Below are positions 14,175-59,444 of a DNA stretch of 64,000 nucleotides, in pieces. The position numbers were made by a program, and so were the translations under genes. Source of the stretch: a virus. The notes beneath the pieces were generated by a model. It saw nothing but the letters and a program-made list of their open reading frames with translations. It was not told where the DNA came from and did no database searches. Every line of letters starts with the position of its first letter. The first letter of the stretch is position 1. Where the stretch lies: positions 31,891 to 95,890 of the IMG/VR virus record IMGVR_UViG_3300030106_006270. One strand, written 5' to 3'.

Positions 14175-14816
14175 CTATTTACTACTATAACTTACTAACT
14201 GATTACTTAACAAACTTTGTATTGAATAATATAAAGATGGATTTCTCTTAAGCAGTTCTTTGAACTCATCTTGTTTCCAAACCAAACATTCAGTTGCGTG
14301 TTTTGTTATACAAGTTGCCGTTGCTGGTTTCTCTGTAAGAAAAGACATCTCCCCAACAAACTGCCCATCTCTAAGTTCAGCAACCTTACCTTTGTCTACA
14401 GCAACATCTACTGTACCATTGTATATCAACACTAAATCTTTTACTGGCAAACCTTGTTTAATTATCTTCTGTCCTGACTTAAATTTTTTCCAACTAGCAA
14501 TCTTACTAATCTTTAGATATTCTACAGGACTCAAATCTTTGAATAATGTTTCATATAATTCTTTATCTTTAGGATTCATATGTACTGGCCTTTTCTCATA
14601 AATGATTACGGATATATGATAAAAATTCAACACAATGAAAACTAAGTTCCAATGTATGGCAATCCACATCGGTTCTACTGGTATAACCCAATTATAAAAA
14701 ATAGAAAATGCGCTTGCCAGTATAGATACTATTCTAAGCCATAGTATGTCTTTTACTAAAAAAGAAAATGCGATTAATCCAAAGGCTAGATGCCCAGCTA
14801 TAGTTGCTATATTCAT
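14175..14816 (-). CDS. Popeye-domain-like membrane protein (3 TM + cyclic-nucleotide-binding domain)
   Basis: DILWLR TM motif; LYETLFKDLS; GQFVGEMSFLTEKPATAT cNMP fold. Confidence 0.85.
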   Translation of the reverse strand: MNIATIAGHLAFGLIAFSFLVKDILWLRIVSILASAFSIFYNWVIPVEPMWIAIHWNLVFIVLNFYHISVIIYEKRPVHMNPKDKELYETLFKDLSPVEYLKISKIASWKKFKSGQKIIKQGLPVKDLVLIYNGTVDVAVDKGKVAELRDGQFVGEMSFLTEKPATATCITKHATECLVWKQDEFKELLKRNPSLYYSIQSLLSNQLVSYSSK

Positions 14817-14831
14817 ATAAATAAGTATTAT

Positions 14832-15089
14832 TCAATCTTCTTTTCCATCGGGCTCATCCCAATATCTTTCCTCACCAACTTCATTTATTTGATACTCTAC
14901 AAAGTCTTCCGAACTCATATTATCGTCTCCCATATAGTCAATGCCAAAAGTAAGGTAATCTTCTATATATCTTTGAATGTCTTTTGGCTGTATGTATAAT
15001 CCATAAATACTCATGGGTCTCTTCTTAGCCATTCTCTTTTGGTCTTTACATATTCTCTTATGTATATAATGACCTAATTTATTCAACAT
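14832..15089 (-). CDS. Hypothetical protein
   Basis: ORF track. Confidence 0.45.
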   Translation of the reverse strand: MLNKLGHYIHKRICKDQKRMAKKRPMSIYGLYIQPKDIQRYIEDYLTFGIDYMGDDNMSSEDFVEYQINEVGEERYWDEPDGKED

Positions 15090-15336
15090 CCAAGCTACTC
15101 CACCTTTTCAACTTTTTCTTTTTGACTTTTACTCTTTCTTCAATATCACTCCAACTGATAAGGTCATACTCATGCATCAATTCAATCATACAATACAAAT
15201 CACCAACCTCTTCTGTTAGTTTTTCTCTAGTGCGACTTTCATAGTAATCATCGCACCTGATTGCTTTACTGCATGCTTGTATCAACTCACCACACTCTTC
15301 CATTGTAATGGTTAGTAACTCTTGTAATTTATCCAT
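15079..15336 (-). CDS. MazG-like NTP pyrophosphohydrolase
   Basis: MEECGELIQACSK...EEVGD. Confidence 0.85.
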   Translation of the reverse strand: MDKLQELLTITMEECGELIQACSKAIRCDDYYESRTREKLTEEVGDLYCMIELMHEYDLISWSDIEERVKVKKKKLKRWSSLDVE

Positions 15337-15337
15337 A

Positions 15338-15868
15338 TCACAATCTCCTCATAAACTTCCTCTGCTTTGTTGTCATCATTTGTTGTGACGCTAACTCATT
15401 CATAATAGTAGATTTATTCATAAGAGTAATCTTATCGTCACTGTACAATGATTGTGTGTAGTTACAAGCAGCTTGATAACCTCTACTGTCAAACTCTGTC
15501 ATAACCAACTTAGTTGCTTTTTGTATTGAGAGCAGGGTGGGAGTCGAACCCACTAACTTCGGGTTTGCAATCCGAGCCCTTTTCCGATTGGGTACCTGCT
15601 CATTGTATTTCTTTAACCATCTATCCCAGCTGTTGTCAGCAAAGATACCTTTGGCTCTCTTATTACCACCAACACCTCTTCTGTCTAATCTCTTCAGTTC
15701 ATCAGACTTCTCACTAGATACTGGCTGAATGTAACCACCTGTTTTATGTGGGTATACTGTATGTGACGAATACTTTTGAGTATCACTACATTCAACACAT
15801 ACATCATAACCCAACTTAATACGCTCATCAGTTAACTGATGTTCACATTGTTTACATTTCTGGCACAT
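15338..15868 (-). CDS. C4 zinc-finger (DksA/TraR-like) protein whose ORF reads through a tRNA gene
   Basis: CKQC...ERIKLGYDVCVECS; frame stays open across the tRNA. Confidence 0.65.
   Translation of the reverse strand: MCQKCKQCEHQLTDERIKLGYDVCVECSDTQKYSSHTVYPHKTGGYIQPVSSEKSDELKRLDRRGVGGNKRAKGIFADNSWDRWLKKYNEQVPNRKRARIANPKLVGSTPTLLSIQKATKLVMTEFDSRGYQAACNYTQSLYSDDKITLMNKSTIMNELASQQMMTTKQRKFMRRL
15529..15601 (-). tRNA. tRNA-Cys(GCA)
   Basis: GAGCAGG/CCTGCTC acceptor; CCC/GGG D-stem; TCGGA-TT GCA AA-CCCGA anticodon arm; GTGGG-TTCGACT-CCCAC T-arm; U73 discriminator; CCA not encoded. Confidence 0.85.
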
Positions 15869-16085
15869 CTCTGTCCAAATCTATTTCGGTTTCAAAGCCT
15901 GTAGTTTGTAGACTATCTAAGTAACTGACATCCTCATCATTGTAACCATAAGAGTCATAAGGAGGACCTGGCAATTCAGGTTCGTCAGGGTCTATGATAT
16001 CGATAGAATGGTCATAAACTTCGTTATCCATTTCTTCGAAAAAGTCATCCATATCTTTTTGTATTTCCGATAGTGTTGTATTCAT
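15852..16085 (-). CDS. Highly acidic small protein
   Basis: D/E-rich; AAGGA RBS; directly after an early-type promoter. Confidence 0.55.
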   Translation of the reverse strand: MNTTLSEIQKDMDDFFEEMDNEVYDHSIDIIDPDEPELPGPPYDSYGYNDEDVSYLDSLQTTGFETEIDLDRDVPEM

Positions 16086-16111
16086 TATATATCCTTTATT
16101 TTTTACATCTA

Positions 16112-16140
16112 AAGCTACGAATAAATACGCTAAAAGTCAA
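16112..16140 (-). promoter_or_regulatory. Sigma70-type promoter TTGACT-N17-TAGCTT
   Basis: Conserved six-copy motif. Confidence 0.8.
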
Positions 16141-16158
16141 GCACTTTTTCCTGTTTTT

Positions 16159-17910
16159 TTACAATAAATGTGACACCTCAATATGTTCTGCATTGAACTG
16201 TTTTTTCTTTATACCACAGCCCTCTACGAATGTCCACTGTTTTCCACCTTTGAAAATTCTTTTATCTATAATTAAATCTATATATCTATCATTACTCACA
16301 CCTATGCTCATAAGTATTAGTTTCTTCTTAAATCTGTATATAGCTCTACTGTTTGCCACAACTCCACTGAAGTAAGTAACTCCTTCGGATTCTTCACAAC
16401 CAAAGTCGTTTGATAGAAAATCAGAACCATCCCACCAACCTGTTTTTTCAAACTGAAACATTGGTGGGCCTTGCTTTCTATTATATAAGTAATTACCGGC
16501 TAATATACTTTGTCTTCTATGCACCCATCTACGATAAGATGAGTTACAATTCTTAATAGTGGCTTTCCAAAACTTCTGTGGTTCTCTGGCTTTCCAATAA
16601 GCCAATGCCCATACTAATTGTCCATAGGATAAAGCGTGTCCTCTGCAGTAACTATACTTCGGTGAGTGTCTTAGTTCAGTAATAATATTTGATTGGTCAG
16701 CGTCTTTCTTTTTACCTTGCAATCTATTGAGAAACTCATCCATCACATCAGGTTGTTGTTTGCTCCAACCTCTACGGTATCTATCGGCAAAATCCATAGA
16801 ACATCCTAAACTATCAGAGATATATTCTATGGCATCTTCATCAGTTATTATCTGTCTCTTACCCTTACCACCACTACGGAAGTAAGCTGCTTTCCTACCA
16901 CCATCGGCAGCGGCTGGTCTTATCAAAGCCAGAGCCAACGCCACATCATACACATTCTTTGGTTGCAAAGCCAGTATAGTCTTTCTCATAGTACGGCTTT
17001 CACTTTGAGTTAAACCTATGACTTCTCCTCTGCATAGTAATTCAGAAGCTAACTTATCATCCTGCGGATACTCTGCTACAGGTTTGGAACTAAGTTGCCA
17101 CAATTGAGATAATCCTCTATTACATAGTAAATCTATTTTGATTAAGTTCTGCTCCTCAACATCGTACTTGTCTAATATGATTTGCTTCCTCTGTTCTTTC
17201 AACCAAAGTTCATTCGGTACATTGTCGTTAAAAACAATCAACCCACCACAATGTAGAGACCACTGTCGTTGCTTACCCAAAAGAGATTTCGCATAGTGTT
17301 GAACGTCTTTACGAACATAAGGGTCGGGAAAGATGTCGGAGAGTTTGTACCTTCGTGGAAGAAACTTACGATAACCAAATTTTCGAATTGCTTCCCTCAT
17401 AGCAGACTTAGGCTTGTACATAACTTTATTACTTATCCTAGCAACTTTGTTAGGGTGTATCTCGTGGAACTGCTCTATCAAATCATCCCTAATAAAGTGA
17501 GGTACATCTAAGTCGATATCGGGTTGGGTATCCCTACACCAGTTCATAAATCTAGTTAATGGAATCTTTTCTCGGATAGGGTCGATATCACTAATTCCTA
17601 ATTGATAACAGATTAACGAACTAGCCGCTGAACCTCTGAGGACATGCGGTATGTTTTGATTTTTAATCAACTGTAGTAAATCACTTACTCTGTGAAATGT
17701 AGAGACAAAACCTTTTTGCTCAATAATCTTATACTCTTTGTCTAATCTTCTGATATACTCCATACCAGTGGGATAAGGGCGTCTGAATCTTTTAATCAAT
17801 GCCCCTATGGGCTGGGAATACTTTTTATCAACTAAACCTATGTGTAAATCTGAATTACTTATATAACCTTCCATGCAGTAATAAATAGTTTCGGAAGGAT
17901 GGAATATCAA
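16159..17910 (-). CDS. dnaE: Compact family-C DNA polymerase (DnaE-like, lacking the PHP domain); true start possibly 17874
   Basis: RGSAASSLICYQLGISDIDP; PDIDLD; HCGG; KIDLL; ALALIRP; YSYCRGHA...LAYWKA. Confidence 0.85.
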   Translation of the reverse strand: MIFHPSETIYYCMEGYISNSDLHIGLVDKKYSQPIGALIKRFRRPYPTGMEYIRRLDKEYKIIEQKGFVSTFHRVSDLLQLIKNQNIPHVLRGSAASSLICYQLGISDIDPIREKIPLTRFMNWCRDTQPDIDLDVPHFIRDDLIEQFHEIHPNKVARISNKVMYKPKSAMREAIRKFGYRKFLPRRYKLSDIFPDPYVRKDVQHYAKSLLGKQRQWSLHCGGLIVFNDNVPNELWLKEQRKQIILDKYDVEEQNLIKIDLLCNRGLSQLWQLSSKPVAEYPQDDKLASELLCRGEVIGLTQSESRTMRKTILALQPKNVYDVALALALIRPAAADGGRKAAYFRSGGKGKRQIITDEDAIEYISDSLGCSMDFADRYRRGWSKQQPDVMDEFLNRLQGKKKDADQSNIITELRHSPKYSYCRGHALSYGQLVWALAYWKAREPQKFWKATIKNCNSSYRRWVHRRQSILAGNYLYNRKQGPPMFQFEKTGWWDGSDFLSNDFGCEESEGVTYFSGVVANSRAIYRFKKKLILMSIGVSNDRYIDLIIDKRIFKGGKQWTFVEGCGIKKKQFNAEHIEVSHLL

Positions 17911-56951: not shown

Positions 56952-59444
56952 TCAAAAAAATCTTTCCATAGATGTTTTTTTATTCACAGGCTCATTCCAT
57001 TTCAAAGATTCATAAAACATCATTATCTTCTTCTCTAACATTTGAGCATACATCTTTTTGTGATCTATGTATTGTTTTATAAAACTAATTACCTCAGGTG
57101 GGTCTTCATAACCTTTGTAACCACAAGAATCTAATCCAAACTCATTTTGTCTTAAGTAAACCCATTTTATCTTTTCGGAATTACTTATCTTTTCATACTT
57201 ACCATCAACACCGAAGTGTTCCAATAAGTCATTGTAAGTTAGTGCTGCTTTGACATGTGCTGGGGCACCTTTCGCAAACTGAGTAAAGTGACCATTTTTA
57301 CCAGCACTATATTTTTTCATATTTTTTACACCTGTCGGCATAGCTATCCTATCAAAGTCTACTAATTTCATAGACTCCTTAAAGTTTATTATCCTTTCGT
57401 CTATCTTGTCCTTTGGTACATTTGCCAGTATATCTTCTAAAACACTCTTTAGTAACTCACCCATAGCCTTTGGAAAATTACTACGAACTAAGTCCAAACC
57501 CTTTACATGCAGTTTGTTTACCTTTACTCCATTGTCATTGATAATCTTCATACCATATCGTTTCTTCACAATAAATAAACCACTCTTAGCAATCAATTCC
57601 TGCTTTATCTCAAACCTATGTTTGTCTAAGTTTAGAAACTTACTAGCAAAGTAGTCGTATGACTTATTAAGATATGTTTGCATCTCATCAGCCACATCCA
57701 AAATTACCTTACTCATCTGTGTTTCTGTGAATTTTTTATTTGGAAATCTTTTTTGCACCAATGGTAGTGCTGAATAAAATACGGAATCTGTATCGATGTA
57801 AATACAATAGTCCTCATCAGTATTCAGAGCATTGTTGTAAAAATAGTTACCAATCTTTTTAGTAAATTTTATTAGTTCTTGACCTGTTAGTGTGGTAGCC
57901 TCAGCATTATCTAAATCATAGAATCTAAATACTGGTAAACCTAACACACCATACAATGAGTTTAGAACAACTTTTTGAATCAACTGGCGACTTTTGAAAT
58001 ATGTATACTTTTCGTTATTACCAGCATCACCAAACTTCTTCATTAGCTTTCTATACTCCACACGAGTATCAAACCATTTCTCCAACAATGCAGGAATCAA
58101 ACCTTTTTTATCACTACGATATAATACACCATTGGAAGATACTGAAACCTTATTTTTATCAAAGAAATCTTTCAACTCTTTTTCTGTAAGTTTTCCTTTT
58201 TCTACACCATTGGATATGAGGGTATAAGTTTTTGGCGTGCCCTTCAAGAACTCCTCAGCATCCCAACCTGAAAGTTTTCCAATTTTTGTTTCTGGTGATA
58301 TATTTAAAGACATAATTACTGATGGATACATAGAGGTAATATCTAAGTCAAACACCCAATCATGTTTACCTCTTTGTGGTGGTTGTACATAAGCACCAGC
58401 AAATTTATCGTCATCTTTTTTCTCAACTCTTGGTGGCTTGTTAGGAGCAACAACACCTAAGTTTTTTAGGTAAACCAATATAGCCCCTTCTAAGTAACGA
58501 GATGAGAAGTAAACATCTTCATAAGGAACATGACCTACGTGACATACACCTCTAGCCATATCAATAAAATCTAATTTGTCATGCAATCTTTTCACAAGTC
58601 TAACATCATGTATGTTATATTCGACAAACTTATTTATATCATTTTCATATAAATCATTAAGTGTTCCATCATACTCTATTTTGTTTTCACCTAACTCTTT
58701 TTCTGCAACGGCATCCAATCTATAAGATGATAATTGAGTGTAAGTAAACAATCTGTATAAAGCATAGTAATCTAAACAACTGACACCGGCAAACATATAT
58801 CTCTTTCTATGTTTGTTCCATTGAGCTGTCTGAATTGGTGAAATCATATCAGCAACATTTTTACCAACCACCTTACACATTCTGTTGTATAGATATGGCA
58901 TATCAAATGTATCTATGTTCCAACCTGTAATGATGGTTGGTTTCCATTTCAGATACTCCACCATAAATTTTTGTAAAAGTTCATACTCTGTATTAAATTT
59001 CTCTACTATTATATTATCTTTTGATTTTAGTGTTAGTCTATCTTTATCATCCAACACAAAAGCGTAATAAGTATCACTAACAGAGTCATATGTAGCAATA
59101 GAAGTAATCTTATTGTTAGCATCCTCTGGCATTGGGAATCCCTCTGTTACTTCTACCTCAATGTCAATCATCATTATATTGTGATTATTAGATAGCTCCT
59201 CTGAATCTCCATATTGGTCTACCAATACACGTGTTTCAGGTGGTACATCGGATTCAAATAAGTTTGGTGTGTCGGCATCGAACTTAAATACCTTTCTAAG
59301 TTTATCACCATAGAGAGAAACATGAGAACCGTTTCTATCTTTTACATATGCGTACTTCTTATATGGAATAACATAATAACCTTTATCATCATCCCAAATA
59401 TGAACTTTTCGCGTTTTCATATCAAAGTAAATATTCTGATACAT
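56952..59444 (-). CDS. Family-B DNA polymerase (gp43-like)
   Basis: DIE exonuclease motif; GWNIDTFD; DITSMYPS; KVVLNSLYG; YIDTDS; KKRY; KGLD. Confidence 0.97.
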   Translation of the reverse strand: MYQNIYFDMKTRKVHIWDDDKGYYVIPYKKYAYVKDRNGSHVSLYGDKLRKVFKFDADTPNLFESDVPPETRVLVDQYGDSEELSNNHNIMMIDIEVEVTEGFPMPEDANNKITSIATYDSVSDTYYAFVLDDKDRLTLKSKDNIIVEKFNTEYELLQKFMVEYLKWKPTIITGWNIDTFDMPYLYNRMCKVVGKNVADMISPIQTAQWNKHRKRYMFAGVSCLDYYALYRLFTYTQLSSYRLDAVAEKELGENKIEYDGTLNDLYENDINKFVEYNIHDVRLVKRLHDKLDFIDMARGVCHVGHVPYEDVYFSSRYLEGAILVYLKNLGVVAPNKPPRVEKKDDDKFAGAYVQPPQRGKHDWVFDLDITSMYPSVIMSLNISPETKIGKLSGWDAEEFLKGTPKTYTLISNGVEKGKLTEKELKDFFDKNKVSVSSNGVLYRSDKKGLIPALLEKWFDTRVEYRKLMKKFGDAGNNEKYTYFKSRQLIQKVVLNSLYGVLGLPVFRFYDLDNAEATTLTGQELIKFTKKIGNYFYNNALNTDEDYCIYIDTDSVFYSALPLVQKRFPNKKFTETQMSKVILDVADEMQTYLNKSYDYFASKFLNLDKHRFEIKQELIAKSGLFIVKKRYGMKIINDNGVKVNKLHVKGLDLVRSNFPKAMGELLKSVLEDILANVPKDKIDERIINFKESMKLVDFDRIAMPTGVKNMKKYSAGKNGHFTQFAKGAPAHVKAALTYNDLLEHFGVDGKYEKISNSEKIKWVYLRQNEFGLDSCGYKGYEDPPEVISFIKQYIDHKKMYAQMLEKKIMMFYESLKWNEPVNKKTSMERFF

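What the first reader, a model, noticed from the sequence alone, without database searches (positions are those of the whole stretch)
15338..15868. Intact tRNA-Cys gene embedded in frame, on the same strand, inside a Cys zinc-finger protein gene
Seen: a cloverleaf with GCA anticodon and U73 (15529-15601) starts exactly on a codon boundary. Its 72 nt encode EQVPNRKRARIANPKLVGSTPTLL, and the ORF continues ~60 aa beyond it to meet the next gene. Established: U73 plus GCA define tRNA-Cys, and RNase P/RNase Z processing would cut the mRNA. Inference: this is dual-coding DNA in which tRNA excision competes with translation. Five early Cys codons could make it a Cys-tRNA-sensing switch: stalled ribosomes leave the tRNA free to fold and be released. 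It could also be a way of hiding a tRNA or an att-like site.
Basis: partly seen in the sequence, partly recalled or inferred. Interest (0 to 1): 0.8.

Follow-up and report, generated by a model that had tools for sequence, protein, structure and literature searches.

The report
tRNA gene nested inside phage gene
A complete cysteine tRNA gene sits in frame in the floppy-linker codons of a conserved two-domain gene of an uncultured T4-like marine phage, and about thirty related sequences keep a Cys or Gly tRNA at the same spot with both the cloverleaf and the reading frame preserved, so this DNA very probably serves as both tRNA gene and coding sequence.

Summary
ARAGORN and Rfam (52.3 bits) call a tRNA-Cys(GCA, U73) at 15529-15601 on the minus strand. 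It lies in frame inside the 176-codon ORF 15338-15868.

The ORF is a real gene. Hundreds of marine phage contigs encode the same protein: a zinc-ribbon N domain, a variable basic linker of about 20 aa, and a four-helix C domain. Most have no tRNA there.

In 31 contig records (29 distinct genes) a tRNA replaces the linker: tRNA-Cys in three alleles, tRNA-Gly(UCC) in nine, and one Cys-like tRNA with anticodon GUA.
- All 27 complete genes stay open through the tRNA, in five length classes.
- Both domains show dN/dS of 0.04-0.33.
- The stems show 9 pairs with changes on both sides.
- The tRNA-Gly is 91% identical where the flanks are 61-66%.
- Recombinants carry the window's exact tRNA in other flanks.

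Best reading: a working tRNA nested in tolerant linker codons, with both products made from one transcript. Expression is untested.

The published precedent is selC nested in selB (Mukai 2021). This scan has already noted the same kind of arrangement in at least eight other phage genes on other DNA.

The parts
15338..15868 (-). Whole ORF, 176 codons plus TGA (P0001). It encodes a conserved two-domain phage protein of unknown function.
   Evidence: Full-length homologues at 30-65% identity occur in 33 IMG/VR loci, each one a single open frame. IMG/VR holds 464 relatives.
15602..15868 (-). N-terminal domain, codons 1-89: a CxxC-X15-CxxC zinc ribbon, then the motifs VYPHKTGGYIQPV, LDRR and AKGIFADNSWDRWL.
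   Evidence: Alignments. AF2 pLDDT is 82-93 for residues 1-60. The fold resembles small phage DksA/TraR C4-type proteins in BFVD. dN/dS is 0.04-0.21.
15529..15601 (-). tRNA-Cys(GCA), 73 nt, U73, no encoded CCA. It is read as codons 90-113 plus the first base of codon 114, and it replaces the variable basic linker of the protein family.
   Evidence: ARAGORN and Rfam at 52.3 bits. Phase 0. The residues it encodes have pLDDT 53-56. The identical 74-nt sequence occurs in five metagenome contigs in three flank contexts. Four pairs covary among the Cys-type alleles.
15566..15568 (-). Anticodon GCA, read in frame as codon 101 (Ala).
   Evidence: Read directly from the sequence.
15341..15528 (-). C-terminal four-helix domain, rest of codon 114 to codon 176 (motifs GY..A...LYS.DKI(S/T)L..K). 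The first helix starts right after the tRNA.
   Evidence: pLDDT 91-98, helices 115-129, 131-143, 149-163 and 167-175. Conserved across the family. The distance from the tRNA end to the GY motif is 46 nt in all 30 nested genes that could be measured. dN/dS is 0.09-0.33.
15338..15340 (-). TGA stop of the ORF, 1 nt upstream of the ATG (15336) of the MazG-like gene 15079-15336.

Best explanation
A working tRNA-Cys gene is nested, on the same strand and in frame, in the codons for the flexible linker between the two folded domains of a conserved phage protein. The phage's genes all lie on one strand and are tightly packed, so the tRNA is transcribed as part of the mRNA.

Inferred steps:
- Transcripts in which the cloverleaf folds are cut by host RNase P at the 5' side and by 3' processing enzymes. 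CCA is then added, because none is encoded. This gives mature tRNA and destroys that copy of the message.
- Transcripts covered by ribosomes are read straight through. They give the full-length protein, in which the 24 tRNA-derived residues simply act as linker.

Shown by comparison:
- The DNA is under double selection, for the cloverleaf with its anticodon and for an open frame that joins the two domains.
- The tRNA plus its 5' spacer behaves as a cassette that recombination swaps between related genes (Cys alleles, Gly).

The cassette most likely came from the tRNA cluster that neighbours this gene in related phages. No dedicated regulatory role is needed. The linker is one of the few places in a gene-dense genome where a tRNA can sit without harm.
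For: 1. The tRNA is real. ARAGORN and Rfam give 52.3 bits for the window and 60-62 bits for the nested tRNAs of L003, L036 and L037.
2. The gene is real and continuous. All 33 first homologues are single frames of 167-214 codons, and the tRNA falls exactly in their variable linker.
3. A pattern scan that required only WDRWL codons and a T-loop, not an open frame, found 27 metagenome contigs of the family with a nested tRNA. Every one that is complete (23) runs open into the C domain. With the IMG/VR records this makes 31 records and 29 distinct genes.
4. Five different spacer and tRNA length combinations are all in frame.
5. dN/dS is 0.04-0.33 in both domains among tRNA-bearing genes. In 8 of 20 distinct post-tRNA segments there is no in-frame ATG, GTG or TTG before the C domain, so that domain can only be made by reading through the tRNA.
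6. The cloverleaf is selected while nested. For Gly, 5 pairs changed on both sides, the acceptor, D and anticodon helices are paired in all 8 alleles, and a U-U mismatch in the T stem (columns 48-62) is the same in all 8. For Cys, 4 pairs changed on both sides. Slid controls give 0-1. The anticodon loops are invariant within each type.
7. The nested tRNA-Gly is 91% identical in pairs whose flanks are 61-66% identical. For L036 against L037 the figures are 97% against 56-67%.
8. The window's exact tRNA occurs in three flank contexts (L183, L172, L212).
9. The tRNA-coded residues are the low-confidence stretch (pLDDT 53-56) between two confident domains.
10. Free-standing tRNA-Cys lies 25-124 nt upstream or about 720 nt downstream of the gene in other family members. 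L003's nested tRNA-Cys is 83.5% identical to the free-standing one of L021, L022 and L025.
Against: There is no direct evidence that either product is made. The only RNA run found covers a neighbouring ORF, not this gene. No proteomic data were available. The window's tRNA has an A31-C39 mismatch and the lowest Rfam score of the four. Window against L003 shows no extra nucleotide conservation of the tRNA (73%, against 70-73% in the flanks). One relative (L200) has anticodon GUA and a C4-A69 mismatch, so some copies may be decaying. Many of the 31 records are close relatives, so the count of independent lineages is nearer 7-8. The host is unknown, so its processing enzymes are assumed.
Confidence: 0.75

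Rival explanations
1. Adaptive expression switch. The nesting is selected because tRNA maturation and translation exclude each other on one transcript. The phage would use this to set the ratio of tRNA to protein, or to sense translation status. The first reader's version is that ribosomes stalled at the early Cys codons free the tRNA-Cys to fold.
For: Any RNase P cut must sever the message, and the 5' fragment would then lack a stop codon (a standard inference). Mukai proposed the same logic for selC in selB. The arrangement persists across diverged genes.
Against: The Cys-specific version fails. tRNA-Gly(UCC) occupies the identical junction in a sister clade with the same Cys-rich zinc ribbon, and most family members have the Cys codons without any tRNA. 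Nothing links the protein to tRNA or to Cys/Gly metabolism (no Pfam or PHROG family). Presence and absence is patchy, with at least 3 changes on the domain-only tree, as expected for a tolerated cassette rather than a fixed regulator.
Confidence: 0.12
2. The cloverleaf is not used as a tRNA. It would be a relic or an mRNA structure, and the DNA is now kept only as linker codons or as an RNA stability or processing element.
For: The window copy has an A31-C39 mismatch and its tRNA is no more conserved than the flanks when compared with L003. L200 has a changed anticodon and an acceptor mismatch. Expression is unproven.
Against: There are nine stem pairs with changes on both sides, and the only unpaired cells are a U-U mismatch fixed in the T stem of all eight Gly alleles, the window's A31-C39 and L200's C4-A69. 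The anticodon loops are invariant and the bacterial identity elements are kept: U73 plus GCA for Cys; G1-C72, C2-G71, G3-C70, U73 and UCC for Gly (the identity rules come from my own knowledge). The tRNA-Gly is 91-97% identical against 56-67% in the flanks. The nested tRNA-Gly is 97-99% identical to free-standing phage tRNA-Gly genes. Linkers of tRNA-less relatives are free to vary and show no tRNA trace at E up to 10.
Confidence: 0.08
3. Two separate genes with a tRNA gene between them. On this view the long ORF is an accident of a stop-free tRNA frame.
For: A third to a half of tRNA sense frames are stop-free. The window has an in-frame ATG 9 codons after the tRNA.
Against: All tRNA-less relatives encode both domains as one protein. 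All 27 complete nested genes are in frame, in five length classes. Three lineages (the L003 type, the L037/L151/L191 type and the L208/L210/L218 type) have no start codon between the tRNA and the C domain. No stop precedes the tRNA in any copy.
Confidence: 0.03

Closest known systems
selC (tRNA-Sec) nested inside the selB ORF of Alphaproteobacteria (Mukai 2021, Int J Mol Sci 22:4605, PMC8124441; a bioinformatic prediction)
   Same: An entire tRNA gene lies on the same strand inside a protein ORF and is translated as extra residues. The frame is kept across relatives, and remnants or losses occur in some lineages. Competition between tRNA folding and processing and full-length translation was proposed.
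   Different: In selB the tRNA forms a C-terminal extension. Here it lies between two folded, conserved domains, so both sides must be read. In selB the tRNA and the protein are functional partners, and no such link is seen here. Here the host is a phage, the tRNA species varies (Cys, Gly) and the tRNA behaves as a swappable cassette.
Intergenic tRNA clusters of T4-like and other large phages
   Same: These are phage-borne tRNAs, co-transcribed with neighbouring genes and matured by host enzymes. Related phages of this family carry such clusters (Thr-Ala-Glu-Lys-Cys, Ala-Cys) right next to this gene.
   Different: Those tRNAs lie between genes. This one lies inside a coding sequence, in frame.
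Nested tRNAs in linkers of other phage genes, noted earlier in this scan (primase-helicase, nrdJ, glycosyltransferases, a lysin, a small giant-phage gene)
   Same: The anatomy is the same: a complete tRNA, in frame, in flexible-linker codons, kept in a clade, sometimes with swappable tRNA species (AI notes, not independent evidence).
   Different: The host protein family is different. Those notes are unpublished and I did not re-test them.
Inteins and other in-frame insertions in phage genes
   Same: A foreign module is inserted in frame into a tolerant site of a conserved gene and exchanged between relatives.
   Different: There is no protein splicing and no homing endonuclease. The insert is an RNA gene whose translation stays in the protein.

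Membership tests
tRNA (Rfam RF00005), bacterial-type tRNA-Cys | Cloverleaf that scores above the family's gathering score | tested here: met
   52.3 bits against 29, full length 1-71. ARAGORN gives tRNA-Cys(gca). The cloverleaf also appears in the minimum-energy fold of 171 nt of mRNA context.
tRNA (Rfam RF00005), bacterial-type tRNA-Cys | CysRS identity elements: anticodon GCA and discriminator U73 (rule from my own knowledge of E. coli CysRS) | tested here: met
   GCA at 15568-15566 and U73 at 15529. Both are kept in all three Cys alleles.
tRNA (Rfam RF00005), bacterial-type tRNA-Cys | Stems maintained by compensatory change among relatives | tested here: met
   Four pairs changed on both sides among 4 Cys-type alleles, with 97.5% of cells paired. 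Five pairs among 8 Gly alleles.
tRNA (Rfam RF00005), bacterial-type tRNA-Cys | Mature, CCA-ended, aminoacylated RNA is produced | not testable with these tools
   The only RNA run found covers 15906-16086, not the tRNA.
[quoted passage not shown] | The whole tRNA lies within an ORF, on the same strand, and is translated in frame | tested here: met
   The same holds in 30 further records.
[quoted passage not shown] | The ORF that contains the tRNA is a real, conserved gene whose frame is kept across relatives | tested here: met
[quoted passage not shown] | The tRNA forms a C-terminal extension and is the functional partner of the protein | tested here: not met
   The tRNA is internal, between two domains. 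The tRNA species varies (Cys, Gly), and the protein has no recognisable tRNA-related family.
DksA/TraR C4-type zinc finger (Pfam PF01258), for the N domain | Four-Cys zinc ribbon, CxxC-spacer-CxxC | tested here: met
   C5, C8, C24 and C27 are invariant or nearly so in 44 members.
DksA/TraR C4-type zinc finger (Pfam PF01258), for the N domain | Sequence match to the family profile | tested here: not met
   No PF01258 hit in P0001 or in any of 44 members at E up to 1.
DksA/TraR C4-type zinc finger (Pfam PF01258), for the N domain | Fold similarity | tested here: inconclusive
   BFVD hits to small phage DksA C4-type proteins have E 0.011-0.063 and TM about 0.5 relative to the target. The Atlas lead scores 0.88, below its own trust line. 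Foldseek found nothing in the PDB.
Phage attachment site (attP) overlapping a tRNA | An integrase is encoded in the phage, and the att core matches a 3' part of a host tRNA | tested here: not met
   No PF00589 match in the 95.9-kb record, which is about 52% complete, so absence is not proven. The tRNA is complete, and its alleles diverge with compensatory changes.

The most novel reading that the evidence does not exclude
Linker-nested tRNAs would be a distinct, mobile class of phage gene cassette. The tRNA plus its 5' spacer would move between phages and replace other tRNAs at a fixed 3' junction, which is 46 nt before the GY motif in every Cys and Gly copy. The phage would exploit the exclusive choice between RNase P cleavage and translation to tie the supply of a tRNA to the dose of a TraR-like regulator. 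If so, tRNA genes would be a general and overlooked source of in-frame protein linkers and of post-transcriptional control in large phages.
Probability: 0.15. Interest if true: 0.85.

Novelty: new variant of a known kind. Interest (0 to 1): 0.72.

Why it matters
Gene callers and tRNA finders treat tRNA genes and coding sequences as mutually exclusive, so cases like this are annotated either as a broken gene or as a false tRNA. Here comparative data show one 73-nt stretch under selection both as a cloverleaf and as readable codons joining two protein domains. The tRNA species is swapped in place. This extends the single published example (selC in selB, a C-terminal extension in bacteria) to an internal linker of a phage gene. 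With the other cases noted in this scan, it suggests that nesting of tRNAs in linkers is a recurrent solution in gene-dense phage genomes. It offers a tractable system for two questions: how translation and RNase P compete on one RNA, and how RNA-level constraints shape a protein sequence.

Tried and rejected
- GenBank phages (INPHARED): blastn of 14800-16200 and tblastn of P0001 found nothing.
I reached the DNA of P0006 through the search for related loci instead.
- Pfam, PHROGs and Foldseek against the PDB gave no family for the protein.
- RNA evidence: one marine metatranscriptome held 8% of the sampled words. When laid, it gave a single 181-nt contig over the neighbouring ORF (15906-16086) and nothing over the gene or the tRNA, so it says nothing on expression.
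- tRNA remnants in tRNA-less linkers: an Rfam search at E up to 10 over 11 loci found none at the linker. I therefore cannot say that ordinary linkers descend from decayed tRNAs.
- Own promoter or terminator for the tRNA: promoter-like sites were not above the shuffled expectation, and no terminator-like site was found.
- Integrase, for the att-site idea: none found.
- Paralogy of the two acidic 77-aa ORFs that precede the genome's two tRNA loci: not supported, E 0.21.
- A single origin of all nested tRNAs: the first tree left it open. The domain-only tree needs at least 3 changes. Recombination, shown, makes the count unreliable, so origin by one insertion plus cassette swapping against several insertions remains undecided.
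- Further tRNA species at this site: the viral pattern scan and the best 80 IMG/VR relatives added none beyond Cys and Gly. The pattern requires WDRWL and a GGTTCRANTCC T-loop, so other cases may have been missed.

Full report
**Observation.**
The window is part of a 95.9-kb IMG/VR viral record, about 52% complete. It has 33% G+C and every gene lies on the minus strand. Its replication genes are T4-like: a family-B polymerase, a DnaB-like helicase and RNR.

ARAGORN finds a single tRNA in the window, tRNA-Cys(GCA) at 15528-15601 on the minus strand. Rfam matches 15601-15529 end to end at 52.3 bits against a gathering score of 29. The ORF 15338-15868 (minus strand, 176 aa, P0001) spans it.
- G1 of the tRNA is the first base of codon 90.
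- The 73 nt are read as EQVPNRKRARIANPKLVGSTPTLL plus the first base of Ser114.
- 63 more codons follow.
- The stop lies 1 nt before the next gene's ATG.
- The discriminator is U73 and no CCA is encoded.

**Is it more than chance?**
An open frame across a tRNA is common. The genome's second tRNA (Gly, L001 1500-1572) is also crossed by a spurious ORF. The case therefore rests on relatives.

**The gene is real and continuous.**
The search for related loci gave 33 IMG/VR loci that match residues 5-176 at 30-65% identity. In each, the match lies in one open frame of 167-214 codons. The exhaustive protein search gave 161 representatives, and IMG/VR holds 464 relatives.

The alignment shows three parts:
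- a conserved N domain: a CxxC-X15-CxxC zinc ribbon with VYPHKTGG.IQPV, LDRR and AKG...SWDRWL;
- a variable Lys/Pro-rich linker of about 20 residues;
- a conserved C domain: GY..A...LYS.DKISL..K.

The tRNA-coded residues fall exactly on the variable linker.

An AlphaFold2 model built on 44 sequences gives:
- pLDDT 82-93 for residues 1-60;
- pLDDT 53-56 for the tRNA-coded stretch;
- pLDDT 91-98 for a four-helix C domain that starts at residue 115, right after the tRNA.

The protein has no Pfam or PHROG family and no PDB fold match. The N domain resembles small phage DksA/TraR C4 zinc-finger proteins in BFVD, and the protein atlas gives the same weak lead. I treat that as a lead only.

**Other nested copies.**
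Among the first 33 loci only L003 (65% identical) has the tRNA-Cys inside the gene. A representative at 47% identity (P0006) showed a different tRNA-like peptide. Its locus L036 and a relative, L037, carry tRNA-Gly(UCC) at the same place.

I then scanned for WDRWL codons followed 62-92 nt later by a T-loop. This pattern does not require an open frame. In the metagenome collection, 27 of the 76 hits are family genes, and each has a nested tRNA: 12 Cys, 14 Gly and one Cys-like tRNA with anticodon GUA. The total is 31 records and 29 distinct genes, from TARA, JGI and other assemblies. All 23 complete metagenome genes and the four IMG/VR ones are open from the zinc ribbon through the tRNA to the end of the C domain. 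The other four run off their contigs.

**Selection on the frame.**
- The spacer between WDRWL and the tRNA is 12, 20, 23, 35 or 38 nt, and the tRNA calls are 72-75 nt. The sum is a multiple of three in all five classes.
- dN/dS among tRNA-bearing genes is 0.04-0.21 for the N domain and 0.09-0.33 for the C domain, wherever dS is not saturated.
- In 8 of 20 distinct post-tRNA segments, covering three lineages, there is no in-frame ATG, GTG or TTG before the C domain. That domain can only be made by reading through the tRNA.

**Selection on the tRNA.**
- Eight distinct nested tRNA-Gly alleles (of nine found) show five stem pairs changed on both sides. The acceptor, D and anticodon helices are 100% paired. 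A U-U mismatch in the T stem (columns 48-62) is fixed in all eight.
- Four Cys-type alleles show four such pairs, with 97.5% of cells paired.
- Slid-partner controls give 0-1 pairs.
- The anticodon loops do not vary within a type.
- In pairs of Gly genes whose N domains are under 80% identical, the tRNA is 91% identical against 66% and 61% for the two domains. For L036 against L037 the figures are 97% against 56-67%.
- The window-type tRNA-Cys is identical over 74 nt in five further contigs whose flanks differ by up to 32%.
- Window against L003 shows no excess conservation (73% against 70-73%), but the differences include compensatory changes at pairs 5-68, 12-23 and 27-43.

**Cassette behaviour and origin.**
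- L183 combines the N domain of L003 (99%), the window's tRNA (100%) and the C domain of L212 (100%).
- L172 has L174-like flanks (87% and 90%) but the window's spacer and tRNA (100%).
- The distance from the tRNA to the GY motif is 46 nt in every measurable copy, Cys and Gly alike (44 nt in L202, where the tRNA call includes 2 further nt).
- On a tree built from the two domains only, the Gly genes form one clade. The Cys genes are mixed with tRNA-less genes, and at least 3 changes of tRNA presence are needed.
- Related phages carry free-standing tRNA clusters beside this gene. A tRNA-Cys lies 25-124 nt upstream in three loci and about 720 nt downstream in four, and an Ala-Cys pair lies about 2 kb upstream in others.
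- L003's nested tRNA-Cys is 83.5% identical to the free-standing tRNA-Cys of L021, L022 and L025. The nested tRNA-Gly is 97-99% identical to free-standing tRNA-Gly genes of many other phage contigs.
- No tRNA trace is found in the linkers of 11 tRNA-less loci.

I infer that a neighbouring tRNA entered the linker and has since been exchanged by recombination.

**Mechanism.**
The comparison shows double selection on one stretch of DNA.

The rest is inference from standard bacterial RNA processing. The tRNA is co-transcribed with the message; no promoter or terminator signal of its own stands out. The cloverleaf can form in mRNA context. RNase P and 3' processing would release it and sever the message, while ribosome-covered copies would yield the full protein. 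Neither product has been observed, because the one RNA run found does not cover the gene.

- The Cys-sensing switch is contradicted by tRNA-Gly at the same junction, and by the many tRNA-less relatives that have the same Cys codons.
- The att-site idea lacks an integrase and does not fit a complete tRNA that evolves by compensatory change.

**Comparison with what is known.**
Full-text searches found one published case of a tRNA nested in a bacterial ORF: selC in selB (Mukai 2021, PMC8124441). There the tRNA forms a C-terminal extension of its own partner protein.

Earlier notes of this scan describe the same anatomy in at least eight other phage genes on other DNA. None concerns this protein family. 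Those notes gave me the lead to the Mukai paper, which I checked. I did not use them as evidence.

**Verdict.**
It is a new variant of a known kind. The comparative support is strong, and expression is untested.

Noticed in passing
L200:569-642 (TARA_R110002074_G_scaffold382001_1): This family gene carries a nested tRNA with the window-type tRNA-Cys body (86% identical), but with anticodon GTA (Tyr), a short variable arm and a C4-A69 acceptor mismatch. The ORF is still open. It is either a decaying copy or an anticodon-shifted tRNA.
   Followed up: partly
L202:1095-1168: In this nested tRNA-Gly, the Ser codon after the discriminator is TCC instead of TCA. This synonymous change creates an encoded CCA end.
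   Followed up: no
L006:2662-2866 (weaker: L031:1061-1270, L035:147-345): A manA RNA motif (RF01745, 69.3 bits, above its gathering score) lies directly upstream of the tRNA-less family gene. The matches in the two other relatives are below threshold.
   Followed up: no
L303, L300, L301 (upstream); L258, L263, L292, L293 (downstream): A free-standing tRNA-Cys is persistently linked to this gene across the family. It is the last member of a Thr-Ala-Glu-Lys-Cys array 25-124 nt upstream, or it lies alone about 720 nt downstream.
   Followed up: partly
window 15566-15568: The anticodon GCA of the nested tRNA-Cys is itself read in frame as codon 101 (Ala). All Cys alleles share this frame (peptide RIANP).
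   Followed up: yes
window 14175-14816 (-): A 213-aa phage protein combines a POPDC (Popeye-like) membrane domain with a cyclic-nucleotide-binding domain (Pfam E 1e-14 and 3e-16).
   Followed up: no
window 16159-17910 (-): A 583-aa protein carries the DnaE-type (Pol III alpha) NTPase and finger domains. It is much shorter than cellular DnaE, and the phage also has a family-B polymerase at 56952-59444.
   Followed up: no
L297:1034-1602 (same contig as L028): This tRNA-less family gene is split into two overlapping frames, by an apparent frameshift or sequencing error. It is the only broken copy among about 130 loci examined.
   Followed up: no
L001:1460-1828 (own genome, outside the window): The genome's other tRNA, Gly(UCC) at L001 1500-1572, is intergenic. 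It is nevertheless crossed by a spurious 122-aa same-strand ORF, which makes it a useful internal control for chance open frames.
   Followed up: yes
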